A stretch of 64,000 nucleotides of DNA from Myxococcota bacterium (GTDB lineage: Bacteria > Myxococcota > B64-G9): assembly GCA_022710975.1 (NCBI GenBank), contig JAKLGA010000009.1:117547-181546 (forward strand), in the 5' to 3' direction. Within the stretch, counting starts at the first letter, position 1. Each line of letters begins with the position of its first letter. Both the position numbers and the translations under genes were made by a program. Of the stretch, positions 19,574-42,058 are shown one piece after another. The notes under the pieces are model-generated. The model did no database searches. It worked only from the letters and a program-made list of their open reading frames with translations, and was not told the DNA's origin.

Positions 19574-21082
19574 GTGTCGAACCTCGAGCCCGGACAGGCC
19601 TTCGGTCCCTACGAGCTCCAGCGCCGGCTGGCGCGCGGCGGCATGGGCGAGATCTGGCTGGCCGAGCGCAAGGGCATGGCCGGCTTCTCCAAGCAGGTGG
19701 TGATCAAGACCATCCTCGAGGACAACCTCGAGGAGCCCGGCGTGGTGCAGATGTTCCTGGACGAGGGACGCATCGCGGCCAACCTGCACCACCCGAACAT
19801 CGCCCAGACCTACGACCTCGGCGAGGTGAAGAGCACCTACTACATCGCCATGGAGTACGTGCACGGCCACGATCTGCGCGACCTGCTGCTGGTCCATCTG
19901 GAGAAGGGCCAGCTCATCCCGCTCAACATCTTGCTGAGGGTCACGGCCCAGGTGTGCGACGGGCTGCACTACGCCCACCACTGGAAGACCCCCGAGGGGC
20001 TGCCGGCCGGGATCGTGCACCGCGACATCAGCCCGCAGAACATCCTCGTCACCTTCGACGGCGCATCCAAGATCATCGACTTCGGCATCGCCCGCGCGAT
20101 GGCCGGCGCCTCCAAGACGCGCACCGGCGTGATCAAGGGCAAGTGCGCCTACATGTCCCCGGAGCAGGTCCAGGCCGAGAGCCTCGACGGCCGCTCGGAC
20201 CTGTTCTCGCTGGGCGTGGTGATGTACGAGCTGATCACCGGCCGGCGGCTGTTCAAGCGCGACACCGAGATGGCCACCCTGGAGGCGGTCATCCGCACCA
20301 GCATCCCGCCGCCCACCAAGCTCGATCCGAGCGTGCCCAAGCCGGTCGAGGAGCTGGTGCTGAGGGCGCTGCAGCGCTCGCCCAAGAAGCGCTTCCAGAC
20401 GGCCCAGGAGATGCAGCTGGCCGTGGAGGAGGTCATGCAGGCGACCGGCCTGCTGGCCACCTCGGCCCACCTGTCGGCCTTCATGCGCAAGCTGTTCTCC
20501 GAGGACGTGGAGCTGAACCGGGAGCGGCTGCGGGCCCTGAAGGCCAAGCTGCCGGCCACCCCGGGCGCGACGGACGCCGCGGCCCCGATGCTGGAGCGCA
20601 CCAAGCCCTTCGAGGTGGATCTCAGCAAGGGGTTGACCGGCGGGACCGAGGGCATCACCCGCGATCTGCGCGGCAAGCGCAAGGGCAAGGGCCGGGGACC
20701 CACCCCGCTGGCCTGGCTGCTGCTGGCCGGCCTGCTGGCCCTGGTGGCCGGCGGGCTCTTCGTCCTGTTCTACGACTTCGGCGGCCCGGCCGCCGGGACC
20801 GACGCCGGCCTGGCCGGCGAGCCCGCGCTCGACGCCGGGCCCGCCGCGGCCCTCGACGCCGGCCCTGCGGTCCCGGGTCTTCAAGGGACGGATGCCGTGG
20901 TCCCCGACGCCGGGGCGGCCGAGGCGGAGGGGGCCGACGCGGGTGTCCGGCCGCCGGCGGCGGACGACAGGCCCGCGCCCAGGCCGCCCGCGGGCAAGCG
21001 CAAGAAGGTCAAGCCGCCCGTGGGCCCGAAGCAGCCCGGAGATCCCAAGACCGATCCGCTCGACATCAAGCTCGAGCGCTGA
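19574..21082 (+). CDS. Hanks-type Ser/Thr protein kinase with C-terminal TM and Pro/Ala-rich tail (atypical HRDISPQN catalytic loop)
   Basis: G-loop GGMGEIW, VIK lysine, HRDISPQN, DFG, SPE. GTG 19574 has RBS GAGGTG; alternative GTG 19520. Confidence 0.8.
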   Translation: MSNLEPGQAFGPYELQRRLARGGMGEIWLAERKGMAGFSKQVVIKTILEDNLEEPGVVQMFLDEGRIAANLHHPNIAQTYDLGEVKSTYYIAMEYVHGHDLRDLLLVHLEKGQLIPLNILLRVTAQVCDGLHYAHHWKTPEGLPAGIVHRDISPQNILVTFDGASKIIDFGIARAMAGASKTRTGVIKGKCAYMSPEQVQAESLDGRSDLFSLGVVMYELITGRRLFKRDTEMATLEAVIRTSIPPPTKLDPSVPKPVEELVLRALQRSPKKRFQTAQEMQLAVEEVMQATGLLATSAHLSAFMRKLFSEDVELNRERLRALKAKLPATPGATDAAAPMLERTKPFEVDLSKGLTGGTEGITRDLRGKRKGKGRGPTPLAWLLLAGLLALVAGGLFVLFYDFGGPAAGTDAGLAGEPALDAGPAAALDAGPAVPGLQGTDAVVPDAGAAEAEGADAGVRPPAADDRPAPRPPAGKRKKVKPPVGPKQPGDPKTDPLDIKLER

Positions 21083-21099
21083 GCGCGGGGCGAGAGCAC

Positions 21100-24030
21100 A
21101 TGACATCGATGGCCGTGCGCCTGGGGCTGGTGGGCTGGCTCGTGTGTGTCCTGGCCGCGCTGCCGGCGCCCGTGGCGGCCCAGGCCGGGGGCACGACGCT
21201 CGACGCGGACGAGGCCGACGTGCAGTTCGAGCTCGGCAACGCCGCCTACAAGCGCAAGGACTTCCGCAGCGCCCTGTCCCACTACTTCGCCTCCAACCGC
21301 CTGGCGCCGAACCGCAACGTGGTCTACAACCTGGCCCGCTGCTTCGAGGCCCTGGGGCAGCACGTGGAGGCGTACCGCTACTACCAGGTGTTCGGCAGCG
21401 GCGCGCTGAAGGACGCGGAGCGCAAGGCGCTGGACGAGGCGCTGGCCCGCATGCGGCCTTTCGTGGCCTTGCTGCGCGTGGAGAGCCAGCCGCCGGGCGC
21501 GACCATCTTCCTCAACCGGCGGGAGCTCGGCTCCTACGGCCTGACCCCGGCCGTGCTGGCCGTGGCCCCGGGCACCTACCGGGTCCTGCTGGCGCGGGAC
21601 GGCCACCGCGACTTCGAGAGCGCGGCGGCGGTGGCGGCGGTGGGCCGGGAGGTGGCGGTGCGCGGGGAGCTGGCGCGCCTGGTGGGGCGGCTGCGCGTGC
21701 TGGGCGAGCCGGCCGGGGCCGAGGTGCGGGTGGAGGATCCGGCCGGGACCCTGGTGCGCGCGCTGCCCGCCGAGCTGGAGGTGAGCCCGGGCGCGGTCCG
21801 GGTGGTGATCACCCGCGAAGGCTTCCAGCCCCTGGAGCGCAGCGTGCGCATCGAGGTCGGACAGACCGAGAGCCTGGAGGTGAGCCTGGCGCCGCAGACC
21901 GGCACGCTGCTGGTCGAGAGCGCCGAGCGGGACGCGCTGATCCTGGTGGATGGGAAGCCCGCGGGCTTCACCCCGGCCGTGCTCGATCGGCTGCCGGTCG
22001 GCCGGCACGAGGTGGTCGTCCGCCAGGATGGCTTCCTGCCCTTCCGCACCGAGGTGGAGGTGGCCCCCGACGCGCGCGTGGTGGTGGAGGCCACGCTGCA
22101 GATCGTGGAGGACGTGGCCGCCGCCTCGCGCCTCCAAGAGAGCGTGCGCGACGCGCCCGCCTCGGTCAGCCTGATCCCGCGCCGCGAGCTGGAGGCCTTC
22201 GGCTTCTCGAGCGCCGCCGACGCCCTGACCGGCCAGCGGGGCGTGTACCTGACCGACGACGGCACCTACAAGTCGATCGGGCTGCGGGGCTACAGCCCCT
22301 TCGGGCAGTACGGCAACCGCCTGCTCGTCCAGCTGGACGGCCACTCGCTCAACGACGACTGGATCGGTTCGTCCTACATCGGCTTCGACCTGCTCAGCGA
22401 TCTCGGCGCGGTCGAGCGCCTCGAGCTGATCCGCGGCCCGGGCTCGGCCCTGTACGGCACCGGCGCCTTCTTCGGCGTGCTGAACCTGGTGTCCCCCCAG
22501 CGCACCCGGGAGGAGTACGTCTCGGGGGGGTTCGGCCTGGTCGGCCCGGGCACGCTGCGGGGGCGCGCCACGGGCAGCGCCTCCCTCGGCGAGGAGGCGG
22601 GCTTCTGGCTGAGCGCCGGCGGGCTGTACGGGCAGGGGCAGGACTACCGCTCGCCGGCCAGGGTGGGCTCGGCCGAGGCGCCGGACGGGGTGGCCCACGG
22701 GATGGGCGAGGCCGTGGCCGCCTCCGCGCTGGGCAAGGTCTTCTGGCGCGACCTGACCCTGCAGTTCTACCACCACCTGCGCGACAAGCAGGTGCCCAGC
22801 GCCTCCTTCGGCACCATCTTCGGCGACACCCGCACCCACAGCGACGACGCCCGCTCGTTCGTCGAGCTGCGCTACGAGCCCCGCTTCGGCGAGACGTTCC
22901 AGCTCCTCGGGCGCCTGTCCTACGATCACTACGGCTACGACGGCGCCTTCGCCTACGACGATCCGGACGCCGGCCTGGCCCGGGAGTTCTACCGCGGCGA
23001 CTGGACCACCCTGGAGCTGCGCGGGCTGGTCACCCCTGGCTACGGCCTGCGCCTGACGGTGGGCGGCGCGTTCGAGCAGCACTTCGCCAACCCGGGGGTG
23101 GGCGTGTACGGCGCCACCGGCGAGGTGTACTACCGCGAGCTGCACCCGTTCCAGACCTTCGCCGGCTACCTGGTGCTGGACTACGCCCCGCTCGACTGGC
23201 TGGCACTCTCGGCCGGGGCCCGCTTCGATGGCTCGCTGCTGTCCGACCTGCCCGACGAAGCCGGGGGCGTCGAGGACCGCTTCCTGTACTCGGTGAACCC
23301 CCGCCTGGCGGTGATCTTCAAGCCCGGCGCGGACGACACCCTGAAGCTGATGGCCGGCACCGCCTTCCGCGCCCCGTCCATCTACGAGCTGACCTACTGG
23401 GACGGGGGCCTGACCCAGGTGCAGAGCCCGGGGCTCGAGCCCGAGGGCATCTACACCGGCGAGCTGGAGTACACCCGCCGGCTGCCCGCGGGGTTCTCGA
23501 TCACCGCGGCGGTGTTCCTGAACTACATCCAGGAGCTGATCGCCCAGCGGGGCTCCGGTGACGAGAGCGACCCGCTGTACTACGTGAACCAGGACGAGGC
23601 GGTCTGGACGCTGGGCGGGGAGCTCGAGCTGCGGCGCGAGTTCCGCGAGGGCTGGATGCTGGGGCTGCAGTACTCCTACCAGCGCACCCGCGTGGACGGC
23701 CTGCTCGACGGCGCCGAGCTGCCCAACTCGCCCGAGCACCTGGCCGGGGTGCGGGCGGTGGTGCCGCTGGCCGGGCGCTACCTGCAGCTCGCCACCCGGC
23801 TGGCCGTGGAGGCGGGCCGGCTCGATCGCCAGGGCGGACGCACGGGCACGGCCGTGCTGTGGGACGCCACCCTGTCCGGGGAGCTCGACGCGTTCGGCCT
23901 GCGCTACGCGCTGGGCGCGCGCAACCTGCTCGACTGGCGCGTGGAGCATCCGGTGGGCGAGGACATCCTGGACCTCACCCAGCGCCAGCCCGGCCTGGGG
24001 CTGTTCCTCGATCTGTCCTGGGCGTACTAG
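21100..24030 (+). CDS. Outer-membrane TonB-dependent receptor-like protein with N-terminal tandem PEGA domains
   Basis: Signal peptide. Three or more PEGA-like units (PPGATIFLNRRELG, AGAEVRVEDPAG, ALILVDGKPAGFTPAVL). Plug-like region LIRGPGSALYGTGAFFGVLNLVS. Long beta-barrel-like C-terminus ending LDLSWAY. Confidence 0.7.
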   Translation: MTSMAVRLGLVGWLVCVLAALPAPVAAQAGGTTLDADEADVQFELGNAAYKRKDFRSALSHYFASNRLAPNRNVVYNLARCFEALGQHVEAYRYYQVFGSGALKDAERKALDEALARMRPFVALLRVESQPPGATIFLNRRELGSYGLTPAVLAVAPGTYRVLLARDGHRDFESAAAVAAVGREVAVRGELARLVGRLRVLGEPAGAEVRVEDPAGTLVRALPAELEVSPGAVRVVITREGFQPLERSVRIEVGQTESLEVSLAPQTGTLLVESAERDALILVDGKPAGFTPAVLDRLPVGRHEVVVRQDGFLPFRTEVEVAPDARVVVEATLQIVEDVAAASRLQESVRDAPASVSLIPRRELEAFGFSSAADALTGQRGVYLTDDGTYKSIGLRGYSPFGQYGNRLLVQLDGHSLNDDWIGSSYIGFDLLSDLGAVERLELIRGPGSALYGTGAFFGVLNLVSPQRTREEYVSGGFGLVGPGTLRGRATGSASLGEEAGFWLSAGGLYGQGQDYRSPARVGSAEAPDGVAHGMGEAVAASALGKVFWRDLTLQFYHHLRDKQVPSASFGTIFGDTRTHSDDARSFVELRYEPRFGETFQLLGRLSYDHYGYDGAFAYDDPDAGLAREFYRGDWTTLELRGLVTPGYGLRLTVGGAFEQHFANPGVGVYGATGEVYYRELHPFQTFAGYLVLDYAPLDWLALSAGARFDGSLLSDLPDEAGGVEDRFLYSVNPRLAVIFKPGADDTLKLMAGTAFRAPSIYELTYWDGGLTQVQSPGLEPEGIYTGELEYTRRLPAGFSITAAVFLNYIQELIAQRGSGDESDPLYYVNQDEAVWTLGGELELRREFREGWMLGLQYSYQRTRVDGLLDGAELPNSPEHLAGVRAVVPLAGRYLQLATRLAVEAGRLDRQGGRTGTAVLWDATLSGELDAFGLRYALGARNLLDWRVEHPVGEDILDLTQRQPGLGLFLDLSWAY

Positions 24031-24049
24031 CGGGGAGGCGGGGAGTAGA

Positions 24050-25144
24050 TCAGTTGCAGCCGGCCGGAGCGCCGATCACGCCCTCGACGAACTCCATCAT
24101 CGAGAGCTTCTCGTTGTCGGGGATGTCCACGCCCTGGGCCACCCACACGCTGCCGTCCTGCTTGTTGATCGGGCCGTAGAACACGTCCCAGGTGCCGGCC
24201 ACGAGCTCGGCCTGCTTGGTGGCCACCTCGTCCCGGACGGCCTGCGTCACCGCGTCGTTGTAGGCGCCCACGGCCACGATGCCGTCCGCGATCGAGCCCC
24301 AGTAGCTGTGGCTGGTCCAGGTGCCGTCCTTGACCGCCTGCACGCGGCGCGAGTAGTAGGGGCCCCAGTGCCAGACGGCGCTGGTCAGGATGGCGGTGGG
24401 CACGAAGCTCAGCGTGTCCGAGTCATAGCCGATGGCCCAGGCGCCGGCGGCCGCGGCGCGCTCGGCGGTGGCGGTCGAGTCCTGGTGCTGCGCCAGGAGA
24501 TCGCAGCCGGCGGCCAGCAGCTCGTCGGCCGCGGCGGCCTCCAGGGTCGGATCGAACCAGGTGCAGGTCCAGCGCACCTCGACCGTGGCGGTCGGGTTCA
24601 CGCTGCGCACGCCCAGGGTGAAGGCGTTGAGCATGCGGATGACCTCGGGGATGGGGAAGGCCGCCACGTAGCCGATGCGGCCGTTCGTGGTCATGCGCCC
24701 GGCCACGATGCCGGTCAGGTAGCGGGCCTGGTACATGCGGCCGAAGTAGTTGGCCAGGTTCGTGCCGGCCTTGTAGCCCGAGCAGTGCTCGAACTTGACC
24801 TCGGGGAACTGCGCGGCCGCCGTCTCGGTGGGATCCATGTAGCCGAAGGAGGTGGTGAAGATGATGTCGTTGCCGTCCGCCACCAGATCTGCGAGCACCG
24901 GGCCGAGGGCCTCGGCGGTCTCGGCCACGCTGTCGACGTAGGTGGTCTCCACGTCGTCCACCTCGAGCTCCACCTGCAGCCGGCCCTGGTCGTGGGCGTA
25001 GGTCCAGCCCAGATCACCGGGCTGGCTGATGTACACCCAGGCCGCCTTGGTCGTGGTGTCCTCGTCTCCGCCGTCGTCGCAGGCCGCGATCAGGCCGCCG
25101 AACGCAAACACGCCCAGAACCACACCCCACATCTTGGAACGCAT
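24050..25144 (-). CDS. BMP-family (Med/PnrA-like) ABC substrate-binding lipoprotein
   Basis: Lipobox LIAAC. Conserved BMP-family layout. Confidence 0.8.
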   Translation of the reverse strand: MRSKMWGVVLGVFAFGGLIAACDDGGDEDTTTKAAWVYISQPGDLGWTYAHDQGRLQVELEVDDVETTYVDSVAETAEALGPVLADLVADGNDIIFTTSFGYMDPTETAAAQFPEVKFEHCSGYKAGTNLANYFGRMYQARYLTGIVAGRMTTNGRIGYVAAFPIPEVIRMLNAFTLGVRSVNPTATVEVRWTCTWFDPTLEAAAADELLAAGCDLLAQHQDSTATAERAAAAGAWAIGYDSDTLSFVPTAILTSAVWHWGPYYSRRVQAVKDGTWTSHSYWGSIADGIVAVGAYNDAVTQAVRDEVATKQAELVAGTWDVFYGPINKQDGSVWVAQGVDIPDNEKLSMMEFVEGVIGAPAGCN

Positions 25145-25170
25145 GTCGTCCTCCCTCTTGCGTTTCCCTC

Positions 25171-26397
25171 TTACTCGAGGGCTTCGATCCGGTCCTGCCG
25201 GATGGTCCATAGGTCCACACGCCCGTCCATCAGATCCCCCCGCTCGTCCATGTCGACCGTCCCCGTCGTCCCCTCGTAGTCGAGGTTCATCCCCTGAGCC
25301 GCCAGCTCCATGGCCTGCTCCAGATCGTTCCAGCCGAGCTGCTCTCCGGGCGCCGAGGCGACCTGGCCGACCTGGTCGCGGATCGCGGCGCCCGAGGGGG
25401 CCGCGCCGGACTCCTCGGCGGCCCGGGCCATGGCCAGCACCAGGACCATGGCCGCGTCGTAGTAGAAGTAGGCCGCGTTGAGCGGCGCCTCGCCCTCCCA
25501 GCGGCTGGCGAAGTCCTCGGCGAAGGCGTCGGTGATCGAGGCCTGCCCCAGCGCGGGCGCCACGCCCACCGCGCCGTCCAGGACGCCCGGCGGCACGTTG
25601 TCCAGGAACACGTCGGCCTTGAGCGCGGGCGCCAGGTAGAAGCGGGCCTGACCGCCGCGCACGCTCCACTCCTGGACGATCTGCGCCCCGGTGCTGGCGT
25701 AGGACATCAGCGCGATGGCGTCGGGCTTGGACTCCAGGATCGGGGTGAGCAGCCGGTTGAAGTCGGGCGGCACCCCGGGCTGGAAGGAGACCGAGGTCAG
25801 GGTCTGGATGTTGCGGCCGATGAGCTCGTTGACCAGGATGTTGTTCAGCCCCAGGCCGTACAGATCGCCGACGTAGATGATCTGGGCCAGGCGCACCCCG
25901 TCGGCCTGCATCCGTTCGGCCATGGCGCGGCCCAGCTCGCGGGCGGTGGGGCAGGTGCGGAACCAGAAGCCGTTGTCGGCCAGCGTGCTGAAGAAGGGCG
26001 AGGTCACTCCGCCCGAGATGACCACCACGTTGCGGGTGGCGGCCACGGGCGCGAGCTGCTTGCCCATCTCCTCGTCCTGGGGCCCGAGGATGGCCACCAC
26101 GCCCTCGTCCATCAGCTCCTGGGCGGCGTCGAAGCCGCGCCTGAGATCGGAGTGGGTGTCCTTGGTGACCAGCCACAGGGGCCGCCCGGCGATGCCGCCG
26201 GCCTCGTTGACCTGATCGAGGACCTGCAGGATGGCGCGCTCGATGTTGGCGCCCTCGGAGGCGATGTCCCCGGTGAAGGGCAGCAGCGCCCCCACCTTGA
26301 GGGCGTCCGCGGGAGGGCCTCCGGCCGGCTCCACGCAGCCCGCGGCCAGGAGGATGAGGCCAAGCGCCAGCCAGGCCGGGCAGCGTTCGGTGCTCAT
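25171..26397 (-). CDS. Periplasmic substrate-binding protein, type I (LivK-like / Peripla_BP_6)
   Basis: Lipobox LAAGC. LivJ/K-like fold motifs. Start 3 nt from the TBDR stop. Confidence 0.75.
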   Translation of the reverse strand: MSTERCPAWLALGLILLAAGCVEPAGGPPADALKVGALLPFTGDIASEGANIERAILQVLDQVNEAGGIAGRPLWLVTKDTHSDLRRGFDAAQELMDEGVVAILGPQDEEMGKQLAPVAATRNVVVISGGVTSPFFSTLADNGFWFRTCPTARELGRAMAERMQADGVRLAQIIYVGDLYGLGLNNILVNELIGRNIQTLTSVSFQPGVPPDFNRLLTPILESKPDAIALMSYASTGAQIVQEWSVRGGQARFYLAPALKADVFLDNVPPGVLDGAVGVAPALGQASITDAFAEDFASRWEGEAPLNAAYFYYDAAMVLVLAMARAAEESGAAPSGAAIRDQVGQVASAPGEQLGWNDLEQAMELAAQGMNLDYEGTTGTVDMDERGDLMDGRVDLWTIRQDRIEALE

Positions 26398-26399
26398 GG

Positions 26400-28568: not shown

Positions 28569-28726
28569 GCGCGCGTTCTCTCGGGGCAAGTGTTCATGTA
28601 CCGGACTTGGTGTATGCCAGGATCGCCCTTTTTGCAATACCTATCTTCAATCATTTCCGGAGACTGGTTCCAATTCTGGAGCCGAACGGGTAGCATCGGC
28701 TGTCGCCCACGCGGAGGTGGATTCCG

Positions 28727-31764: not shown

Positions 31765-31772
31765 GGCGCGGG

Positions 31773-32204: not shown

Positions 32205-32475
32205 GGGGCCGATTCTACCCGATCCGGCGAGCTGAGAGCAGGGTGTGTGGTGTGAATTTCACGGCCACTGTGAATCCTGACAACAGCACCTGGCCAGGTT
32301 GAGGCGGACATCGAGTCTTGTTTTCCTCCATCTGGTCGAATGCTAGTCCCCTCGGCCTCTTTCTGGCCCGGAATTTGCTTGGAAGTCGCCGAGGAATCGC
32401 TCAACGAAGACACGCCCTTGAAGAGGCAATCGATTCTGCCCGTCTTCTGGCACGGTCTTCTGGAGGAGCTCTCGG

Positions 32476-33291: not shown

Positions 33292-33331
33292 GCCGCGTTT
33301 CCGTTCACCCGCCCCGGCCGATCCTGGTAGG

Positions 33332-33961
33332 ATGCCTGCCGGCATGCGCTCCGTCCTTCCACTTCCCGTGTCCTGCGCGGCCGCGTGCCTGGCGCTGGCG
33401 GGTCTGCTCGCGGGCGGGCTCCAGGCGCAGCCCGCTGTCCCGCCCGCGAAGGCGGACCCGCGCCTCGAGCGCATGCTGGCCTGGGCCGAGGCCCGGCTCG
33501 GCACGGAGTACCGCTTCGGCGGGCGGCTCACCCGGCGGCTGCCCGGGCTCGACTGCCTCGGTCTGATCTTCCTGGCCCACGCCCGCGCCGTGGGGGGCTC
33601 CTGGCGCGACTACTCCGTGGTGCCCAGCCGGATGCTGCGCCTGCGCCAACTCGGGCCGGAGGTCGGCCGCTGGGCCTGGGACGAGGCGCCGCCGCCCTGC
33701 CCCGGAGACCTGCGGCGCGGAGACGTGCTGATCCTCTCCTGGCCCTGGGAGATCGAGGACGAGGTCCTCCAGCGCACGCCCGCGGGCCTGGCGCTGCGCA
33801 GCGCCCACGTGGGGCTGTACCTGGGCGCGGGGCGCTGCCTGCACGCCAGCCCCTTCGCTGGGCGCGTGGTCATCGAGCCCCTGGAGGCCCTGCTCCGGGA
33901 GCAGGGCTACCTCGGCATGATCGCCGTCCGCCCCTTCGGGGCGAGCACGCACGGGAGGTGA
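33332..33961 (+). CDS. NlpC/P60 (C40) family peptidase
   Basis: Signal peptide. YRFGG...GLDCLGLI (Cys nucleophile), HVGLYLG (His). Confidence 0.7.
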   Translation: MPAGMRSVLPLPVSCAAACLALAGLLAGGLQAQPAVPPAKADPRLERMLAWAEARLGTEYRFGGRLTRRLPGLDCLGLIFLAHARAVGGSWRDYSVVPSRMLRLRQLGPEVGRWAWDEAPPPCPGDLRRGDVLILSWPWEIEDEVLQRTPAGLALRSAHVGLYLGAGRCLHASPFAGRVVIEPLEALLREQGYLGMIAVRPFGASTHGR

Positions 33962-33967
33962 GGGAGC

Positions 33968-35425: not shown

Positions 35426-35526
35426 GGCGGCCCGCCGCTGGGCGTGACCGGAATCACAGCGCCTGGCTGAATTCGGGCCATGCTTCCGTCGTCTCGTGCG
35501 GTGAGCTCTTACGAGGGAGGAGACCC

Positions 35527-36555: not shown

Positions 36556-36568
36556 GCGCGACGGCGGC

Positions 36569-38092
36569 TCAGTACTCGAACAACCTGAGCTCGGCCAGCT
36601 CCTGCGGGTCCTCGCTCGGGCCCAGCGGGGAGAAGGCCTGGCGGGTGCGGGCGCCCCGGTCGTTGTCGTAGACCACGAGATCGAAGGCGAACACCTCTCC
36701 GCTCGCGGGCGGCGCCTCGCTGTAGCCCAGCTCCGTCCAGGGGATGCGCGCCAGGAAGGTCCAGCCCTGGCCCTCGCGGCAGTCGTCCTCGGGGCGCTGG
36801 CCGGAGAGCTCGAAGCGGAAGTCGACCCCGACCGGCTGCCAGGCCCCGCCGCCCAGGGCGTCGAAGGCGGTGCTGCCCGACAGGTCGAACAGGGCGCGGC
36901 GGGACACGCGCTCCCCGCCCGCGCTCGCCCGGATCAGGGTCAACTCCACGGCGTCATCGCGCTGGATGGCCTGGCGATCGCCCTCGCCGCGCTGCTGGGC
37001 GCAGAAGGTCTCGTCGCGGCTGCTCACGGCCAGCCCCAGCGCCGTCGGATCCCACAGCGCGCGGACCTCGACCGCCTCCTGCCCGGGCGCCGGGCGCAGG
37101 GCCAGCGGCGCGGCGCCGCTGGAGAGGTAGGCCCCGGGCTCCTCGGCGAAGGCGGCGCTGTCCCGGGGGACCGCCCGGGCGTCGAGCAGGCGGGTCTTGC
37201 GGAACACCTCGCCGGCCAGGGCCGGGTCGTAGGCCGGCCCGCCGGCCCAGGCGCCGGGCCAGCGGGTGAGCGCCAGGGCGCCCTGGCCGTCCACCTGGCG
37301 GAGCTCCAGCCCGAGCCGCATGCGCCGGTTCGGCCCGGGCCCGTCGTTGGCCTCGAGCTGGTCGATCGGCACGGCGGCGAAGTAGCGCGCGCCGTCCTCC
37401 AGTGCGGTGAAGTCGTGCAGCACGCTCACCCCGAGCGGGTTCCACAGCTCCTGGTAGCGCTCGGGGCCCAGGGCCAGGACCAGATCGTCTGCGCCGCGCT
37501 CGTCCTCCAGGCTGTCGGCCAGCCCGTCGAGCGCCACCACCAGCGCGTCGCCGGTCCACAGATCCTCGCCGTGCGTGGCGCCGGCCCCCCGCAGGCGGAC
37601 GTCGAGGAACAGGTGGCGCCGGTTGGCGGCCAGGCTGACCTCGGCCGGCCCGAGCCGGAGGCTCCACGGCAGCCCCTCGGGCTCGAGTCCGGCCGCGGGA
37701 TCCGCCAGGGCGGGACCGGCGTGGACCACGGCGGCCTCCACCCGCGTGAGGAACAGGCTCGCCAGCAGGGGGCCTTCGCCCTCGCGCAGCTCGGGGCTGA
37801 AGGCCCAGGCCCGGGGCTGGCCCTGCGCGGTGAGCCCGAGCAGCTCGAGGCGGAAGGGGCCGGCGGGGTGGATCGGCCCCAGGCGCGTGCTGCCACCGCC
37901 GCCCGGCGCGCGGAGCCCGGGCTCGACGGCGCCGTCCGGCGTGACCAGGCCGAGCGACAGCTCCGTCCAGCCGTCCATGGCGCCCTCGCCCACCGGCACC
38001 AGGTTGACGAACAGCTCGTCCGCCGCCTGGCTGGCGCAGCCGGCGAGCCACGCCGCGGACAGGCCGAGCAGGGCGGTCAGGCGCAGGCGCAT
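36569..38092 (-). CDS. Lipoprotein with CBM9-like/DOMON-like carbohydrate-binding-type domain (tentative)
   Basis: Lipobox LAGC. C-terminal VFAFDLVVYDNDRG resembles the CBM9 family; otherwise unknown. Confidence 0.55.
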   Translation of the reverse strand: MRLRLTALLGLSAAWLAGCASQAADELFVNLVPVGEGAMDGWTELSLGLVTPDGAVEPGLRAPGGGGSTRLGPIHPAGPFRLELLGLTAQGQPRAWAFSPELREGEGPLLASLFLTRVEAAVVHAGPALADPAAGLEPEGLPWSLRLGPAEVSLAANRRHLFLDVRLRGAGATHGEDLWTGDALVVALDGLADSLEDERGADDLVLALGPERYQELWNPLGVSVLHDFTALEDGARYFAAVPIDQLEANDGPGPNRRMRLGLELRQVDGQGALALTRWPGAWAGGPAYDPALAGEVFRKTRLLDARAVPRDSAAFAEEPGAYLSSGAAPLALRPAPGQEAVEVRALWDPTALGLAVSSRDETFCAQQRGEGDRQAIQRDDAVELTLIRASAGGERVSRRALFDLSGSTAFDALGGGAWQPVGVDFRFELSGQRPEDDCREGQGWTFLARIPWTELGYSEAPPASGEVFAFDLVVYDNDRGARTRQAFSPLGPSEDPQELAELRLFEY

Positions 38093-38097
38093 GCCCT

Positions 38098-39462
38098 TCA
38101 GCGGCCCTCCAGGCCGTGCTTCTTCAGCAGATCCTTGAGGTGGTGCCGATCGAGCCGGGCCTCGCGGGCGGCGGCCGACAGGTTGCCGCGGTGGCGGGCC
38201 AGGAGATCGAGCAGGTAGGCGCGCTCGAAGGCGTCCACCACCCGCCCCTTGGCGTCCTTGAAGGCGGCGCCCCCCTGGCGGGCCGTGCCCTCCCCGATGG
38301 CGCGCTCGAGCTCGGCCACGAAGGCGCGCGGCTCGAACGGGCGGCCGCTGGCGGCGCCGAGCAGCGCCGCCGCGCGATCGACCGCGTTGCGCAGCTCACG
38401 GATGTTCCCCGGCCAGGGGTAGGCCTGCAGCGCGGTCAGCGCCCCGGCCGGCAGCGCCTCGGCCCGCCAGCCCTCGCGCTCGCCAGCCGCCCGGACCAGG
38501 AAGTGCGCCAGGAGCTGGGGCAGATCCTCGCTCCGCTCGCGCAGCGGGGGCAGGCGCAGGGACACCACCGCCAGGCGGTAGAACAGGTCCTCACGGAAGC
38601 GCCCCTCGGCCACCTCGCGGCGCAGCTCGCGGTGGGTGGCCGCGATCAGCCGGACGTCCACCTCCACGGGGCGATCCGCGCCAACCGGCCGGATCTGCTT
38701 GCGCTCCAGCGCCCGCAGCAGCTTGGGCTGCAGCTCGGCCGCGAGCTCACCGACCTCGTCGAGCAGCAGGGTGCCGCCGCGGGCCTGCTCGAAGCAGCCC
38801 GCCCGGTCGGCCTGGGCGCCGGTGAAGGCCCCCTTGCGGTGGCCGAACAGCTCGCTCTCTGCGAGATCGCGGGGGATGGCGGTGCAGTCCAACACCACGA
38901 AGGGGGCGTCCCGGCGGGGGCTGGCCCGGTGGATGGCCTCGGCCAGCGCCTCCTTGCCGGTGCCCGTCTCGCCCTCCAGCAGCACGGTGACCTCGCTGCC
39001 GGCCACCTCCGCGGCGGTGGCGAAGATCTCGCGCATGCGGCGGCTCTGCCCGAGCACCCCGTGGAAGCTGGACGCCTCGAGGGGCGCCGGGCGCAGCCCG
39101 CGCTCCTCCGGCACGATCTTGAGCGCGGTCTGCCCGAGCCGCACCAGCGCGCCCGGGGCCAGCACCAGCTCCCGCACCCTCGAGCCCTCGTAGAAGGTGC
39201 CGTTGGTGCTGCCCGGGTCCTGGAGCCACACCCCTCCGGGCGCCAGCTTGGCCAGCAGGTGGCGACGGGAGACCGTCCCGTCGACCAGCACCAGCTCGCA
39301 GGCGGGATCGGTGCCGATCTGGATGGGCTCGGGCCCCACGGCGCAGGCCCGGCCCGCGTCCGGTCCCTCGACCACCAGCAGGCGCAGCGCGCCCAGGTCG
39401 CGGCGCACGTCCTCGCTCGGCCCGGCTAGCAGGCTGGTGGTCCTGGAGTCGTCCTGGCTCAT
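38098..39462 (-). CDS. Sigma-54-dependent transcriptional activator with N-terminal FHA domain (FHA-AAA+-HTH)
   Basis: FHA (GTDPACELVLVDGTVSRRHL...STNGTF), Walker A GETGTGKE, GAFTGA sigma-54 contact motif, R-finger region, C-terminal Fis-type HTH. Confidence 0.85.
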   Translation of the reverse strand: MSQDDSRTTSLLAGPSEDVRRDLGALRLLVVEGPDAGRACAVGPEPIQIGTDPACELVLVDGTVSRRHLLAKLAPGGVWLQDPGSTNGTFYEGSRVRELVLAPGALVRLGQTALKIVPEERGLRPAPLEASSFHGVLGQSRRMREIFATAAEVAGSEVTVLLEGETGTGKEALAEAIHRASPRRDAPFVVLDCTAIPRDLAESELFGHRKGAFTGAQADRAGCFEQARGGTLLLDEVGELAAELQPKLLRALERKQIRPVGADRPVEVDVRLIAATHRELRREVAEGRFREDLFYRLAVVSLRLPPLRERSEDLPQLLAHFLVRAAGEREGWRAEALPAGALTALQAYPWPGNIRELRNAVDRAAALLGAASGRPFEPRAFVAELERAIGEGTARQGGAAFKDAKGRVVDAFERAYLLDLLARHRGNLSAAAREARLDRHHLKDLLKKHGLEGR

Positions 39463-39562
39463 GCGGCGCCATTCTACCCGCCGCGAGCCGGCCTGGGAAG
39501 CTTCAACCGGGCGCTTCCGCCGGGCGCCCCCTTGCTGGTAGACTCCCGCCCGGAGAGCTTCC

Positions 39563-40471
39563 TTGAGGTGGACGAAGCACAGCGCGCGGGCGGCGGTCCT
39601 CCTGGGCCTGGCCTTGCTCGCCGGGGCCGCGGCGCCCGGGCGGGCGGACGGGCTCGACCAGGCCGCCGCGGACGCCGCCGCCCTGGAGACCCGCCGGTTC
39701 GTGGCCGAGGCCCGCGAGCGCTACCGCGCCTTCGAGCTGCCGGCCGCGCTCGAGCGGCTGGAGGCGGCGCGCGCCCGCTGGGCCCAGGCCTGCCCGGCCC
39801 TGGACGAGGAGCTCGCCAGCGCGCCCTTCCTGCTCGAGGGGCAGGTGCGCTTCGCCGCGGGCGAGCGCGCCCGGGCGCTGGAGGCCTTCGGCCAGGCGGT
39901 GGCCGTGAGCCCCGCGCTCGCGCCCGATCCGCGCGAGTGGTCGCCCAAGCTGGTGGCGGCCTTCGCCGAGGCGCGCGCGGGCCGGGAGGCGCTGCCCCAG
40001 GCCCGGCTCTCGCCGCTTCGGCTCTCGCCCGCTGGTGCGGAGCTCGCGCTGGACGGCCGCGCGCTGGGCGCGCCGCCGGGCCCGCTGTCGCTCCCGCCGG
40101 GCGACCACTGCCTGGTCGCGCGCGCCCCCGGCCACCGGCCGGGCGCGCTGGTGCTGCGCCTGGCGCCGGGGGAGGAGCGCGCCGTGGAGCTCGCGCTCGT
40201 GGCCGAGGCCGGGCCGGAGCCTGTGGCGCTGCCCGCCGCCGCGCCCGAGCCGGCGCCCGGGGCCGCCCTGCCGGCCCTGGAGCCGCGCGCGTTGGTCGCG
40301 CCCGAGCCGGCGCCCGCGCCGGTGGAGACCGTCTGGTACGAACGCTGGTGGGTCTGGACGCTGGTCGGCGCCGCCGTGCTGGGCGGCGCGGCCACGGCCC
40401 TGGGCGTGCTGCTCGCCCCCGGCGAGGGCGATCCCGGGCTGCAGGTGGTCATCACCCGCCCGCCGAGGTAG
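39563..40471 (+). CDS. PEGA-domain secreted protein
   Basis: TTG start with RBS GGAGAG. Signal peptide. PEGA core ELALDGRALGAPPGPLSLPPGDHCLV. C-terminal TM. Confidence 0.55.
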   Translation: MRWTKHSARAAVLLGLALLAGAAAPGRADGLDQAAADAAALETRRFVAEARERYRAFELPAALERLEAARARWAQACPALDEELASAPFLLEGQVRFAAGERARALEAFGQAVAVSPALAPDPREWSPKLVAAFAEARAGREALPQARLSPLRLSPAGAELALDGRALGAPPGPLSLPPGDHCLVARAPGHRPGALVLRLAPGEERAVELALVAEAGPEPVALPAAAPEPAPGAALPALEPRALVAPEPAPAPVETVWYERWWVWTLVGAAVLGGAATALGVLLAPGEGDPGLQVVITRPPR

Positions 40472-40474
40472 GCC

Positions 40475-42031
40475 GTGCCGGGCTGCTACAGGCTCATCGG
40501 CCGCATCGGGGCCGGAGGGATGGCCGAGGTCTTCGAGGGGCTGGCCCTGGGGGAGGCCGGCTTCGAGAAGCGGGTGGCCATCAAGCGCATCCTGCCCTCG
40601 CTGGCGCGGGATCCGGCCCTCACCGGCTTGCTGGTCGAGGAGGCCCGGGTCGCCAGCCGGCTGGCCCACGGCAACCTGGTGCAGGTCCTCGACCTGGGCC
40701 GCGCCGGGGGTGACTACTACCTGGTGATGGAGCTCGTGGACGGGGCGGATCTGGCCAGCCTGCAGCGGCACCTGCCCGGGCTCGGCCTCGAGCTCCCACC
40801 CGGCCTGGCGGTGTGGATCTGCCGGCAGGTGCTGGCGGGCCTGCACTTCGTGCACCAGCTCGGCGACGCGGACGGCCAGCCGCTGCACCTGGTGCACCGC
40901 GACGTCAGCCCGGGCAACATCCTGGTCTCGCGCGCCGGCCAGGTGAAGCTGACCGACTTCGGCATCGTGAAGGCCCGCGACCGGGCCATCCACACCGAGG
41001 CCGGCCTGATCCGGGGCAAGGCCGCCTACATGCCGCCCGAGCAGGCCGCCGGGGAGCCCCTCGATCAGCGCGCGGATCTCTTCTCCCTGGGCGTGGTGCT
41101 GCACGAGCTGCTGGTCGGGCGAGCGCTCTTCGCCGGGGACTCGCCGGCGGCGGTGCTGCGGCGGGTGGTGTCCCTCGAGCGCGAGCCCGCCCCGGCGCCC
41201 TCCAGCCTGCGGCCCGGGCTGCCCGCGACGCTGGACGCGGTGGTCGGGTGCGCGCTGGCACCCTGCCCCGCGGGGCGCTACCCCAGCGCCCGGGCGTTCG
41301 ACGAGGCGCTGGAGGCGGCCGCCCTGGAGGCCGGCCTGCGCGGCTCGGCCGCGGAGCTCGAGGACTGGCTGGCGCGCGCCATGCCGCCCGCCCGGCTCGA
41401 GCCGCTGCCGGCGGGCGCGGGCTGCATCGAGCTCGGGCCCGCGTCCGCCGCGCCGGTCGGGACCCTCCCGCTCGCCCGGGCGGTCGCGCCCATCTCCGCC
41501 CCCGGGCGCGCCGGCGGGCGAGGGGCCTGGCTCGGGCTCGGGGTGGTGCTGCTCGCGGGCGCGGCCGCCGTGGGCTGGAGGTTCCTGTCCCCGGAGGAGG
41601 GCGCGCCCGTGGCGCGGCCCGGCGCCGTGGCTGCCCCCGCGGCGCCCCCGACCTCCCCCGACCGCGGAGCCGATCTGGCGGCGCCCGGCCTGCGCCAGGG
41701 GCGAGGCTGCCTGCACGCCTGCGCGGGCGCGCAGCCCGCCCCGGTCCGGCCCGGGGCCAAGCCCGGGCGGCCGGCGCCTGGCCCGGTGACGCCCGCGGGG
41801 GAGGGCACCCTGTTCCTCAACTCCGAGCCGTGGGCGCGCATCCTGGTGGACGGCCGGGACACGGGCGCCACCACGCCCACGGTCGAGGGGCTGCGCCTGC
41901 GGGCCGGCCGCCACTCCATCACCCTCGTCAACCCGGAGCTGGAGCTGCGCCTGGACGCCGAGGTCGAGCTCGACCGGGACGAGGTCCTCAAGCGCTTCTT
42001 CGATCTGCGCAGGGATGGCCAGCAGCGCTGA
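40475..42031 (+). CDS. Hanks-type Ser/Thr protein kinase with TM and C-terminal PEGA domain (HRDVSPGN catalytic loop)
   Basis: G-loop GAGGMAEV, AIK, HRDVSPGN, DFG, PPE. C-terminal EGTLFLNSEPWARILVDGRDTGATTP = PEGA. Confidence 0.8.
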   Translation: MPGCYRLIGRIGAGGMAEVFEGLALGEAGFEKRVAIKRILPSLARDPALTGLLVEEARVASRLAHGNLVQVLDLGRAGGDYYLVMELVDGADLASLQRHLPGLGLELPPGLAVWICRQVLAGLHFVHQLGDADGQPLHLVHRDVSPGNILVSRAGQVKLTDFGIVKARDRAIHTEAGLIRGKAAYMPPEQAAGEPLDQRADLFSLGVVLHELLVGRALFAGDSPAAVLRRVVSLEREPAPAPSSLRPGLPATLDAVVGCALAPCPAGRYPSARAFDEALEAAALEAGLRGSAAELEDWLARAMPPARLEPLPAGAGCIELGPASAAPVGTLPLARAVAPISAPGRAGGRGAWLGLGVVLLAGAAAVGWRFLSPEEGAPVARPGAVAAPAAPPTSPDRGADLAAPGLRQGRGCLHACAGAQPAPVRPGAKPGRPAPGPVTPAGEGTLFLNSEPWARILVDGRDTGATTPTVEGLRLRAGRHSITLVNPELELRLDAEVELDRDEVLKRFFDLRRDGQQR

Positions 42032-42058
42032 GCCGGGCGGGCCTGGGTCGGGGGATCC

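What the first reader, a model, noticed from the sequence alone, without database searches (positions are those of the whole stretch)
19574..42031. Both Ser/Thr kinases replace the catalytic-loop lysine (HRD-x-K-xxN) with serine, and both are coupled to PEGA domains
Kinase 19574..21082 has HRDISPQN and kinase 40475..42031 has HRDVSPGN, while retaining the G-loop, VAIK lysine, DFG and (S/P)PE. The canonical loop is HRD[LIV]KPxN, and the Lys contacts the gamma-phosphate. Two independent kinases in one window share the same K-to-S change. One is followed by a PEGA-TBDR fusion and the other is itself PEGA-fused. This points to a distinct myxobacterial kinase subfamily, possibly with altered catalysis or pseudokinase function.
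Basis: partly seen in the sequence, partly recalled or inferred. Interest (0 to 1): 0.5.

Follow-up and report, generated by a model that had tools for sequence, protein, structure and literature searches.

The report
Kinases with a relocated catalytic lysine
Both protein kinases in this window belong to a large bacterial clade that lost the usual catalytic-loop lysine and, in strict step, gained a lysine on the neighbouring substrate-binding loop, so they are probably active kinases with a rewired active site, not dead ones.

Summary
K1 (19574..21082) has HRDISPQN and K2 (40475..42031) has HRDVSPGN, and alignment to PknB puts the Ser exactly on the catalytic-loop Lys. No Lys lies elsewhere in the loop.

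The P+1-loop Thr (PKA T201, PknB T179), which normally hydrogen-bonds that Lys, is Lys in both kinases (GKCAYMSPE, GKAAYMPPE).

Across about 470 related kinase domains the two positions covary almost perfectly:
- Lys loops always pair with Thr, Ser or Ala.
- Ser, Thr or Asn loops nearly always pair with Lys or Arg.
- All 8 Ser-plus-Thr domains carry Arg two residues further along the loop, as tyrosine kinases do.

All other catalytic residues are 99-100% conserved, which argues for active kinases with a relocated lysine rather than pseudokinases.

K1 and K2 are 41% identical paralogues of one near-monophyletic clade, so they are not independent events. The clade also occurs in Acidobacteriota, Bdellovibrionota and Planctomycetota.

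The PEGA links are real and syntenic but not specific to this kinase type. Orthologous PEGA-TonB receptors in more distant lineages sit beside canonical Lys-type kinases.

I found no description of this swap in the searchable literature and no solved structure. Verdict: a new variant of a known kind, of moderate interest.

The parts
19574..21082 (+). K1: bitopic Ser/Thr kinase. It has an N-terminal cytoplasmic kinase domain, one TM helix, a low-complexity periplasmic linker and a conserved C-terminal tail.
   Evidence: Pfam Pkinase 143 bits. 100% identical to P0001, named 'serine/threonine-protein kinase [Myxococcota bacterium]'. AF2 model pLDDT 91.4, best PDB fold match PknB.
20018..20041 (+). 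K1 catalytic loop HRDISPQN. The Ser codon AGC at 20030..20032 replaces the canonical Lys.
   Evidence: It aligns on PknB HRDVKPAN without gaps.
20138..20164 (+). K1 P+1 loop GKCAYMSPE. The Lys codon AAG at 20141..20143 replaces the canonical Thr (PKA T201, PknB T179).
   Evidence: This position is Lys in 100% of 389 domains of the class.
20702..20779 (+). K1 transmembrane segment (aa 377-402, TPLAWLLLAGLLALVAGGLFVLFYDF).
   Evidence: Kyte-Doolittle 19-residue mean of 2.51.
21056..21079 (+). K1 C-terminal motif PLDIKLER, preceded by a basic run. It is conserved among orthologues despite a variable linker.
   Evidence: Alignment of P0001-P0008. Similar tails occur on the canonical kinases paired with distant receptor orthologues, for example GLDIRMER in L090.
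21100..24030 (+). TonB-dependent receptor with an N-terminal extension: signal peptide, TPR-like region, three PEGA stretches, Plug and beta-barrel. It starts 18 bp after the K1 stop.
   Evidence: Pfam and translation. 54% identical over its full length to the gene following the K1 orthologue in L001. A kinase lies immediately upstream in 6 of 7 contexts examined.
40475..42031 (+). K2: Ser/Thr kinase with a kinase domain, a weak TM segment (aa 350-371) and a C-terminal PEGA domain.
   Evidence: Pfam Pkinase 112 bits and PEGA 20.8 bits. 100% identical to P0121. Hydrophobicity 1.82.
40895..40918 (+). K2 catalytic loop HRDVSPGN (Ser codon AGC at 40907..40909).
41015..41041 (+). K2 P+1 loop GKAAYMPPE (Lys codon AAG at 41018..41020).
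41804..42010 (+). K2 C-terminal PEGA domain (aa 444-512).
   Evidence: Pfam PF08308, 20.8 bits, E=3.5e-4, at the cut-off. Orthologue P0130 also has a PEGA hit.
39563..40471 (+). Gene immediately upstream of K2 in the same frame: signal-like N-terminus, TPR-like region, sub-threshold PEGA and a C-terminal TM helix.
   Evidence: Translation. PEGA 18.7 bits, E=0.0017. TM at aa 266-285. Orthologous to the PEGA protein upstream of P0130 (34% identity, E=1e-18).
38098..39462 (-). FHA-domain sigma-54 enhancer-binding protein, transcribed divergently from the PEGA-protein/K2 pair.
   Evidence: Pfam Sigma54_activat 226 bits, FHA 44 bits, Yop-YscD_cpl 60 bits. The same arrangement occurs in L005/L006, and an FHA-EBP lies within two genes of P0166.
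36569..38092 (-). 507-aa protein with a faint CBM9-like hit, syntenic with the K2 cluster.
   Evidence: CBM9_1, E=0.049. A 504-aa CBM9_1 (faint) gene sits in the same position in L005/L006.
42059..44929 (-). Dockerin/EF-hand-like repeat protein convergent with K2, also syntenic.
   Evidence: Dockerin_1 32 bits. A Dockerin_1 gene lies downstream of P0130 in L005/L006.

Best explanation
K1 and K2 are members of an old, large, nearly monophyletic clade of PknB-like (Hanks-type) Ser/Thr kinases. In this clade two residues that touch each other in the canonical active site have swapped identities.

The swap:
- The catalytic-loop Lys (PKA K168, PknB K140), which holds the ATP gamma-phosphate, has become Ser (rarely Thr or Asn).
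- The P+1-loop Thr (PKA T201, PknB T179), which hydrogen-bonds that Lys and the catalytic Asp, has become Lys (rarely Arg).

The most likely mechanism is that the P+1-loop Lys reaches back into the same pocket and supplies the positive charge for the gamma-phosphate and transition state. These would then be catalytically competent kinases with a relocated lysine. They are probably Thr-directed, because the DFG+1 residue is Ile or Val.

What is shown: the motifs, the alignment register, the near-perfect covariation, the invariance of all other catalytic residues, the clade structure and the synteny.

What is inferred: that the relocated Lys does the job of K168 and that the proteins are active.

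In context, both are envelope-spanning sensors:
- K1 is encoded immediately upstream of a TonB-dependent receptor with a TPR/PEGA N-terminal extension. It probably reads that receptor through its periplasmic tail.
- K2 carries its own periplasmic PEGA domain. It sits beside a TPR/PEGA membrane protein and a divergent FHA-sigma54 activator, which would read the phospho-Thr it makes.
For: Register and swap: the PknB alignment puts Ser on K140 and Lys on T179.

Covariation over 470 domains:
- Loop Lys pairs with Thr 67, Ser 10, Ala 1, and never with Lys or Arg.
- Loop Ser pairs with Lys 349, Arg 3, Thr 8.
- Loop Thr pairs with Lys 16. Loop Asn pairs with Lys 5. Loop Ala or Cys pairs with Arg.
- All 8 Ser+Thr domains read HRDLS[PG]RN, with Arg at i+4 as in tyrosine kinases. 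Two more genomic cases read HRDV[SA]QKN + GT, with Lys at i+4.
- A basic residue is therefore almost always kept, at one of three places, and never at both the loop i+2 and P+1 positions.

Catalytic machinery in 389 class members (PknB numbering): K40 99%, E59 99%, H136/D138/N143/D156/G158/E186/D198 100%, R137/F157/R262 99%. The activation-loop Thr171 is 89% conserved.

Clade structure: in an NJ tree built without the focal columns, 146 of 150 tips in one clade carry the P+1 basic residue. The two Lys-loop tips inside that clade have also reverted to Thr or Ser.

Functional equivalence: orthologous TPR-PEGA-TonB receptors (41-45% identity) are paired with canonical HRD[LI]KPxN + GS kinases. 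Those kinases have C-terminal tails resembling K1's (closest in L090).

A conserved FHA (phospho-Thr reader) sigma54 activator sits next to K2 orthologues.

Fold: AF2 pLDDT 91.4, best match PknB.

Precedent for moving this basic residue: tyrosine kinases and JAK JH2 use the position two residues downstream, and ROP5B uses a Gly-loop Arg (PMC4718504). The P+1 Ser/Thr is stated to interact with the catalytic loop (PMC6213207).
Against: - No biochemical data exist for any member that I could find, and no solved structure. The nearest PDB chains (PknA, PknB, StkP) are all Lys + Thr.
- I could not inspect side-chain geometry. The prediction tool returns no coordinates, and the AF2 activation loop just before the Lys (model residues 170-185) has pLDDT below 50.
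- The clade is essentially one ancient event, so the covariation rests on few independent transitions (Fitch count 11 for the composite state, rough NJ tree).
- A second class-specific basic residue two positions upstream ('KGK', 89% K/R) and changes on alphaC (R55 to M, R58 to D) show the rewiring is broader. The P+1 Lys may serve another role.
- The sample of Lys-type domains is biased, because they come mostly from multi-kinase proteins retrieved with a Ser-type query.
Confidence: 0.7

Rival explanations
1. Pseudokinase or scaffold. Loss of the catalytic-loop Lys abolishes phosphotransfer, and these proteins signal by binding ATP or partners without catalysis.
For: The lysine is described as required for protein-kinase activity and present in all EPKs (PMC4702295). 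The loop gives partial hits to the APH and ABC1 atypical-kinase models. No activity data exist.
Against: The residues whose loss defines pseudokinases (beta3 Lys, catalytic Asp, DFG Asp, plus Asn and the alphaC Glu) are 99-100% conserved across 389 divergent domains. That degree of conservation is not expected if catalysis were lost. A compensating basic residue is always present. Canonical kinases fill the same genomic slot in related modules. An FHA reader of phospho-Thr is conserved next to K2.
Confidence: 0.1
2. Specificity or regulatory variant. The P+1-loop Lys (with the neighbouring K/R in 'KGK') is mainly a substrate or activation determinant. It could select acidic or phosphorylated residues near the acceptor, change the acceptor, or pair with the new acidic alphaC residue. 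The loss of the catalytic-loop Lys would then simply be tolerated, giving a slow kinase.
For: The P+1 loop is a major specificity determinant (PMC6213207). PKA T201 contacts the substrate P-2 Arg (PMC8970585). Class-specific changes also occur at PknB positions 55, 58 and 177, and the activation loop is shorter.
Against: This does not explain why Lys-loop domains never carry K/R at P+1. It also does not explain why Ser-loop domains that keep the P+1 Thr always gain Arg or Lys at loop position i+4. That pattern tracks a charge needed at the active site, not a substrate contact. The two readings are not mutually exclusive.
Confidence: 0.18
3. Artefact or chance: a mis-registered loop, a sequencing error, or two unrelated degenerate kinases that happen to share a substitution.
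For: None found. The window comes from a metagenome-assembled genome (name of P0001).
Against: The alignment to PknB is ungapped. The same codon (AGC) differs from AAG at two bases in both genes. Hundreds of homologues from independent assemblies share the motif.
Confidence: 0.01

Closest known systems
PknB / PknA / StkP-type bacterial Hanks Ser/Thr kinases
   Same: Best sequence matches (E about 1e-46) and best fold matches (TM 0.76-0.9). Same Gly loop, VAIK, alphaC Glu, HRD, Asn, DFG, APE and conserved activation-loop Thr171. Same bitopic layout with a cytoplasmic kinase, one TM helix and an extracytoplasmic sensor.
   Different: The catalytic-loop Lys is Ser and the P+1 Thr is Lys. The alphaC Arg55 is Met, the activation loop is shorter, and 'KGK' appears. 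The sensor is PEGA or a low-complexity tail instead of PASTA.
Tyrosine kinases and JAK JH2 (HRDLAARN / HRDLRAAN; basic residue shifted within the catalytic loop)
   Same: The K168-equivalent charge is supplied from a different position, and the P+1 residue co-varies with it (PMC4718504). Minor sister groups here use exactly the i+4 solution: HRDLSPRN and HRDVSQKN with GT.
   Different: In K1 and K2 the charge comes from the P+1 loop, not from the catalytic loop. They lack the Pro-x-x-Trp P+1 motif of tyrosine kinases, and DFG+1 Ile predicts Thr as the acceptor.
WNK ('with no lysine') kinases
   Same: An invariant catalytic lysine is missing from its canonical motif and supplied from another element, and the kinase stays active (my own knowledge, not tested here).
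   Different: WNK relocates the beta3 (VAIK) Lys to the Gly-rich loop. Here VAIK is intact and the catalytic-loop Lys is the one that moved.
RIO / Bud32 / APH-type eukaryotic-like kinases
   Same: They lack a Lys or Arg in the catalytic loop (PMC4702295). From my own memory, not tested here, the RIO and Bud32 loops read H-x-D-L-S/T-x-x-N. Partial APH and ABC1 Pfam hits and weak Bud32 NCBIfam hits fall on K1, and a partial ABC1 hit falls on K2.
   Different: K1 and K2 have the full Hanks C-lobe with an activation segment and APE. The Bud32 model scores 26 bits against a cut-off of 188. They are not members.
TonB-dependent transducers (FecA-FecR-FecI cell-surface signalling)
   Same: An outer-membrane TonB-dependent receptor with an extra N-terminal periplasmic extension is encoded next to a bitopic inner-membrane signalling protein.
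   Different: The extension is TPR + PEGA, and no STN signalling-domain hit was listed. The partner is a Ser/Thr kinase, not an anti-sigma factor, and no ECF sigma gene is adjacent. The comparison is to how it may work; membership fails.
FHA-domain sigma54 enhancer-binding proteins of Myxococcus xanthus (Jelsbak et al. 2005, listed in the references of PMC12288465)
   Same: An FHA + AAA+ sigma54 activator lies next to a Ser/Thr kinase, the presumed phospho-Thr input.
   Different: No experimental link exists for this pair. The kinase here is the Ser/Lys-swap type with a PEGA ectodomain.

Membership tests
Hanks-type Ser/Thr protein kinase (Pfam PF00069, PknB-like) | Significant match to the Pkinase profile and a bilobal kinase fold | tested here: met
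   143 and 112 bits against a cut-off of 31.7. AF2 pLDDT 91.4 with PknB as the top fold match.
Hanks-type Ser/Thr protein kinase (Pfam PF00069, PknB-like) | Gly-rich loop, beta3 Lys (VAIK), alphaC Glu, HRD Asp, catalytic Asn, DFG Asp, APE Glu | tested here: met
   All are present in K1 and K2 and 99-100% conserved in the clade. The first Gly of the K1 loop is Ala (ARGGMG).
Hanks-type Ser/Thr protein kinase (Pfam PF00069, PknB-like) | Catalytic-loop Lys two residues after the HRD Asp (HRDxKxxN) | tested here: not met
   Ser in both kinases. Ser 94% and Thr 4% across the clade.
Hanks-type Ser/Thr protein kinase (Pfam PF00069, PknB-like) | P+1-loop Ser/Thr (G-T/S-x-x-Y-x-A/S-P-E) contacting the catalytic loop | tested here: not met
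   Lys in both kinases, and 100% Lys in the 389 domains that were classed by having Lys at this position.
Hanks-type Ser/Thr protein kinase (Pfam PF00069, PknB-like) | Phosphotransfer to Ser/Thr of proteins | not testable with these tools
   Needs an in vitro assay. Indirect support comes from conserved catalytic residues and the FHA neighbour.
Pseudokinase | Loss of at least one of the beta3 Lys, catalytic Asp or DFG Asp (usual operational definition) | tested here: not met
   All three are retained in K1 and K2 and 99-100% conserved in the clade.
Tyrosine-kinase-like catalytic loop | HRDLAARN or HRDLRAAN, with Pro and Trp in the P+1 loop | tested here: not met
   K1 and K2 read HRD[IV]SP[QG]N with GKxAYM. 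Only small sister groups have Arg or Lys at i+4.
RIO / Bud32 / APH atypical kinases | Family profile above cut-off, and no activation segment or APE | tested here: not met
   NCBIfam Bud32 scores 26 bits against a cut-off of 188. The Pfam APH hit covers only the 40-residue catalytic-loop region. APE and a full C-lobe are present.
PEGA-domain protein (PF08308) | PEGA profile match at or above the gathering score | tested here: met
   Receptor 99.5 bits in 3 stretches. K2 20.8 bits, equal to the cut-off. The protein upstream of K2 scores 18.7 bits, below the cut-off, but its orthologue is positive.
TonB-dependent receptor | Plug domain plus a TonB-dependent beta-barrel | tested here: met
   Plug 66.2 bits and barrel 97 bits.
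TonB-dependent transducer (cell-surface signalling) | N-terminal STN signalling domain and an adjacent FecR-type anti-sigma plus ECF sigma | tested here: not met
   No STN hit. The extension is TPR + PEGA, and the neighbour is a kinase. Only the working analogy is retained.
FHA-sigma54 enhancer-binding protein | FHA domain, Sigma54_activat AAA+ domain and a C-terminal HTH | tested here: met
   FHA 44 bits, Sigma54_activat 226 bits, HTH_8 19.3 bits (slightly below its cut-off).

The most novel reading that the evidence does not exclude
The Ser/Lys swap would be a third, so far undescribed, active-site architecture of Hanks-type protein kinases, beside the Ser/Thr-kinase pair (loop Lys + P+1 Thr) and the tyrosine-kinase pair (loop Arg + P+1 Pro). 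In it the gamma-phosphate lysine is delivered from the P+1 loop. It is used by thousands of kinases in Myxococcota and several other phyla. K1 would additionally belong to a new kind of trans-envelope signalling, in which a TonB-dependent receptor with a TPR/PEGA extension talks to a Ser/Thr kinase through the kinase's conserved C-terminal peptide instead of to an anti-sigma factor.
Probability: 0.35. Interest if true: 0.7.

Novelty: new variant of a known kind. Interest (0 to 1): 0.55.

Why it matters
The catalytic-loop lysine is treated as universal and required in protein kinases. PMC4702295 states that all EPKs have an Arg or Lys there.

A large, conserved clade keeps every other catalytic residue but moves this charge to the residue that normally contacts it. 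This has four consequences:
1. It would be a natural experiment on what the lysine does.
2. It gives a simple rule for not mis-calling hundreds to thousands of bacterial kinases as degenerate.
3. It offers a clean swap-back mutagenesis test.
4. It warns that PCR or motif screens based on DLKPEN and GTxxYxAPE would have missed this class.

The conserved kinase-TonB-receptor and kinase-FHA-sigma54 modules give testable entry points to envelope signalling in Myxococcota.

Tried and rejected
- **Mis-registration.** Checked by HMMER alignment to PknB. The loop aligns without gaps and has no Lys. Rejected.
- **A third kinase in the window.** None found by six-frame regex.
- **Literature.** Full-text searches for HRDVSP, HRDISP and related strings found nothing relevant. 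Concept searches found no description of the swap. PMC2887360 only says myxobacterial kinases 'predominantly' have Lys. The key kinome paper (Perez et al. 2008, PMC2572974) and Jelsbak 2005 (PMC549468) are not held. Prior mention there cannot be excluded.
- **A characterised member.** The M. xanthus DK1622 homologue (ABF91177.1) carries only a generic name. I could not tie any named Pkn/Pkt kinase to the clade.
- **Solved structure of the class.** None surfaced. The closest chains are PknA, PknB and StkP, all Lys + Thr.
- **Curated family.** No NCBIfam model passes its cut-off.
- **Side-chain geometry from AlphaFold.** The tool gives no coordinates, no model file appears in /data, and the activation loop is low-confidence.
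- **PilZ neighbour.** Present beside K1 orthologues but absent from the window. ORF 18943..19503 has no similarity to it.
- **PEGA as a hallmark of the Ser-type class.** Rejected. PEGA occurs in 24 of 100 K2 relatives, DUF2378 is common among K1 relatives, and canonical kinases pair with orthologous receptors.

Full report
**1. What is there**

The window has about 72% G+C. Its best database matches are named Myxococcota MAG proteins.

- Translating 19520/19574..21082 and 40475..42031 gives two proteins, here K1 and K2. They are 100% identical to database entries of 502 and 518 aa.
- Both hit Pfam Pkinase far above the cut-off: 143 and 112 bits against 31.7.
- A six-frame regex scan finds no other kinase catalytic loop in the 64 kb.

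| Motif | K1 | K2 |
|---|---|---|
| Gly loop | ARGGMG | GAGGMA |
| beta3 | VVIK | VAIK |
| alphaC | FLDEGR | LVEEAR |
| catalytic loop | HRDISPQN | HRDVSPGN |
| DFG | DFGI | DFGI |
| P+1/APE | GKCAYMSPE | GKAAYMPPE |

**2. Register**

HMMER aligns K1 to M. tuberculosis PknB at E about 1e-46. The catalytic loop aligns without gaps, 'givHRDiSPqNilv' over 'giiHRDvKPaNili'.

- The Ser is therefore the true equivalent of PknB K140 (PKA K168), and no Lys lies elsewhere in the loop.
- In both genes the codon is AGC, two substitutions away from AAG.

**3. The second half of the change**

The same alignment shows that the Thr of the P+1 loop (PknB GTAQYLSPE, T179; PKA T201) is Lys in K1, and K2 has Lys at the same place. 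In canonical Ser/Thr kinases this Ser/Thr 'interacts with the catalytic loop' (PMC6213207). From established knowledge of PKA, T201 hydrogen-bonds K168 and D166. The two residues that normally touch have therefore exchanged identities.

**4. This is a family rule, not a peculiarity**

- Among the 120 best homologues of K1, 119 have a recognisable loop, and all 119 read HRDxSPxN with GK.
- Among those of K2: 106 Ser+Lys, 9 Thr+Lys, 1 Asn+Lys, 1 Ser+Arg.
- An exhaustive phmmer search of 1.84 billion cluster representatives returned many multi-kinase proteins, which added canonical domains for comparison.
- Pooling all 470 domains with both motifs gives this table:

| Loop residue | P+1 residue (count) |
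|---|---|
| Lys | Thr 67, Ser 10, Ala 1; never Lys or Arg |
| Ser | Lys 349, Arg 3, Thr 8 |
| Thr | Lys 16, one each Arg, Asn, Thr |
| Asn | Lys 5, Thr 1 |
| Ala | Arg 2, Asp 1 |
| Cys | Arg 2 |
| Gln | Thr 2 (both lack DFG) |

- All eight Ser+Thr domains read HRDLS[PG]RN, with Arg two residues further along the loop. That is the position tyrosine kinases and JAK JH2 use to replace K168 (PMC4718504).
- Two further genomic cases read HRDV[SA]QKN with GT.
- A basic residue is thus nearly always kept at one of three alternative sites, and the loop i+2 and P+1 sites are never both basic.

**5. Catalytic competence**

I aligned 490 domains with PknB as a ruler. In the 389 members of the Ser/Thr/Asn + Lys class (PknB numbering):
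- The beta3 Lys and alphaC Glu are 99% conserved.
- H136, D138, N143, D156, G158, E186 and D198 are 100% conserved.
- R137, F157 and R262 are 99% conserved.
- The activation-loop Thr171 is kept in 89%.
- DFG+1 is Ile or Val in 92%. This residue is reported to shift acceptor specificity between Ser and Thr (PMC4702295). From my own knowledge, beta-branched residues favour Thr.

The pattern is what purifying selection on catalysis would leave, and it runs against a pseudokinase.

Other class-specific changes:
- Arg55 to Met and Arg58 to Asp on alphaC.
- A K/R two residues before the new Lys ('KGK', 89%).
- A shorter activation loop.

The rewiring is therefore wider than one pair, and I cannot say which contacts the extra residues make.

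**6. One clade, not two events**

- K1 and K2 are 41% identical.
- I built an NJ tree of 230 non-redundant domains with the focal columns removed. One clade of 150 tips contains 146 with the P+1 basic residue.
- The two Lys-loop tips inside that clade also carry Thr or Ser at P+1, which looks like coupled reversion.
- The sister clade mixes all three solutions.
- The tree is rough, so the number of independent switches is uncertain. The swap looks ancient and stably maintained.

The 80 loci kept are mostly Myxococcota. They also include MAGs labelled Thermoanaerobaculia/Acidobacteriota, Bdellovibrionales/Bacteriovoracaceae, Planctomycetota, Desulfobacterales and Bradymonadales, all with GK. 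The clade is not confined to myxobacteria, although MAG labels carry some risk.

**7. Structure**

- AlphaFold2 on a 50-sequence alignment gives pLDDT 91.4 and pTM 0.90 for the K1 domain.
- Foldseek puts PknB first, at TM 0.76-0.9.
- The activation loop (model residues 170-185) is below pLDDT 50, and no coordinates are exposed. The key geometric question, whether the Lys amine reaches the gamma-phosphate site, remains inferred.
- A query restricted to the loop-to-P+1 segment finds only Lys+Thr kinases as the nearest PDB chains. No member of the class seems to be solved.

**8. Genomic context of K1**

K1 architecture:
- One strong TM helix at aa 377-402.
- A low-complexity Ala/Pro/Asp/Gly linker.
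- A C-terminus that is conserved among orthologues despite the variable linker: a basic run followed by PLDIKLER.

The downstream gene (21100..24030) starts 18 bp after the K1 stop. It encodes a signal peptide, a TPR-like region, three PEGA stretches, a Plug domain and a TonB-dependent barrel.

Conservation of the pairing:
- Orthologues of K1 at 63-70% identity are followed 3 bp later by the orthologous receptor, 54% identical over its full length.
- The receptor family is large: 120 listed homologues of about 950-1000 aa.
- Among four distant members, three have a kinase gene immediately upstream and one does not.
- Those three kinases are canonical (HRD[LI]KPxN with GS) and only 29-32% identical to K1.
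- Their C-termini resemble K1's to varying degrees: GLDIRMER, GIKLVR, DDIRSHR.

Two conclusions follow. The PEGA/TonB-receptor link is a property of the module, not of the Ser-type kinase. And the same slot is filled by either kinase type, which argues that they are functionally equivalent.

By analogy with FecA/FecR transducers, I propose that the receptor's periplasmic TPR/PEGA extension engages the kinase tail and relays receptor occupancy to the cytoplasm. This is inference only. The defining STN domain and the anti-sigma/ECF sigma genes are absent.

**9. Genomic context of K2**

- K2 has a weaker hydrophobic segment at aa 350-371 and a C-terminal PEGA domain.
- The gene directly upstream (39563..40471) has a signal-like N-terminus, a TPR-like region, a sub-threshold PEGA and a C-terminal TM helix.
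- Divergent from this pair is an FHA + sigma54 AAA+ activator.
- The whole arrangement recurs around a 56%-identical orthologue, including a CBM9-like gene and a dockerin-like gene.
- An FHA-sigma54 activator is again nearby at 47% identity, but not in a third case.
- FHA domains read phospho-Thr. FHA-type enhancer-binding proteins are a known feature of M. xanthus (Jelsbak et al. 2005, cited in PMC12288465).
- The likely flow is: periplasmic PEGA sensing, then K2 (auto)phosphorylation on Thr, then FHA docking, then sigma54-dependent transcription. This again presupposes an active kinase.

**10. How general is PEGA?**

- Only 24 of 100 K2 relatives have PEGA at E<=0.01.
- Among K1 relatives, DUF2378 fusions are far more common than PEGA, by my count 36 against 5 in the precomputed domain column.

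**11. Novelty**

- Full-text searches for the motif strings and for the concept found no description.
- One paper notes only that myxobacterial kinases 'predominantly' carry the Lys (PMC2887360).
- A review-level statement says that all EPKs have Arg or Lys in the catalytic loop (PMC4702295).
- No NCBIfam model names the class.
- The central myxobacterial kinome paper could not be read, so an earlier tabulation is possible.

I therefore file this as a new variant of a known kind: a PknB-like Hanks kinase clade with a Ser/Lys swap between the catalytic and P+1 loops. It fails two classical motif features of the family but keeps the fold and every other catalytic residue.

**12. Verdict**

- The interesting content is the near-perfect coupling, which points to a relocated catalytic lysine. 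I give this 0.7 confidence pending biochemistry or a structure with nucleotide.

Noticed in passing
window 19574..24030; L001 6001..10430; L003 2407..6881; L089 1735..6410; L090 1967..6401; L092 1766..6419: A kinase gene followed directly by a TPR-PEGA-Plug-TonB receptor gene forms a conserved two-gene module, seen in 6 of 7 contexts. The kinase's periplasmic tail ends in a basic run plus a short conserved C-terminal peptide (PLDIKLER, PLDILMER, GLDIRMER), whether the kinase is the Ser/Lys-swap type or canonical. This may be transducer-like signalling from a TonB-dependent receptor to a Ser/Thr kinase.
   Followed up: partly
window 36569..44929; L005/L006: The K2 neighbourhood is syntenic at 56% kinase identity. 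It holds a CBM9-like protein, an FHA-sigma54 activator, a TPR-like/PEGA membrane protein, the kinase-PEGA gene and a dockerin-repeat protein. In L005/L006 a MazE/PIN toxin-antitoxin pair is inserted after the kinase; it is absent from the window.
   Followed up: partly
alignment of 490 kinase domains (PknB positions 55, 58, 177): The swap class also changes alphaC Arg55 to Met (82%) and Arg58 to Asp (71%). It gains Lys or Arg two residues before the new Lys ('KGK', 89%) and has a shorter activation loop. This may be a rewired alphaC/activation-loop coupling. It remains unexplained.
   Followed up: no
window 24050..28637 (- strand): A second TonB-dependent receptor (26400..28637) lies convergent to the first. 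It is followed by two periplasmic binding proteins: Peripla_BP_6/ANF_receptor (25171..26400) and Bmp/PnrA-like (24050..25150).
   Followed up: no
window 56001..60000: G+C drops to 0.61 against 0.69-0.76 elsewhere. The ORFs there (56401..57339, 57388..58206, 58879..59673, 59737..60609) have no Pfam hit, and the window has no tRNA gene. This may be foreign or fast-evolving DNA.
   Followed up: partly
window 61076..64000 (+): A large protein with a sub-threshold FecR-like region followed by VIT and von Willebrand A domains runs off the end of the window.
   Followed up: no
homologue lists: Many close K1-clade kinases from Myxococcaceae and Archangium are fused to DUF2378 (TIGR02265, a Myxococcus paralogous family) instead of a membrane anchor. 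This suggests a cytoplasmic branch of the same swap clade.
   Followed up: no
window 29212..35425: Between the two kinase loci lies a run of envelope or secreted functions: M64 IgA-peptidase-like (29212..31764), a methyltransferase (32476..33291), NlpC/P60 (33332..33961) and a TPM-domain protein (33968..35425).
   Followed up: no
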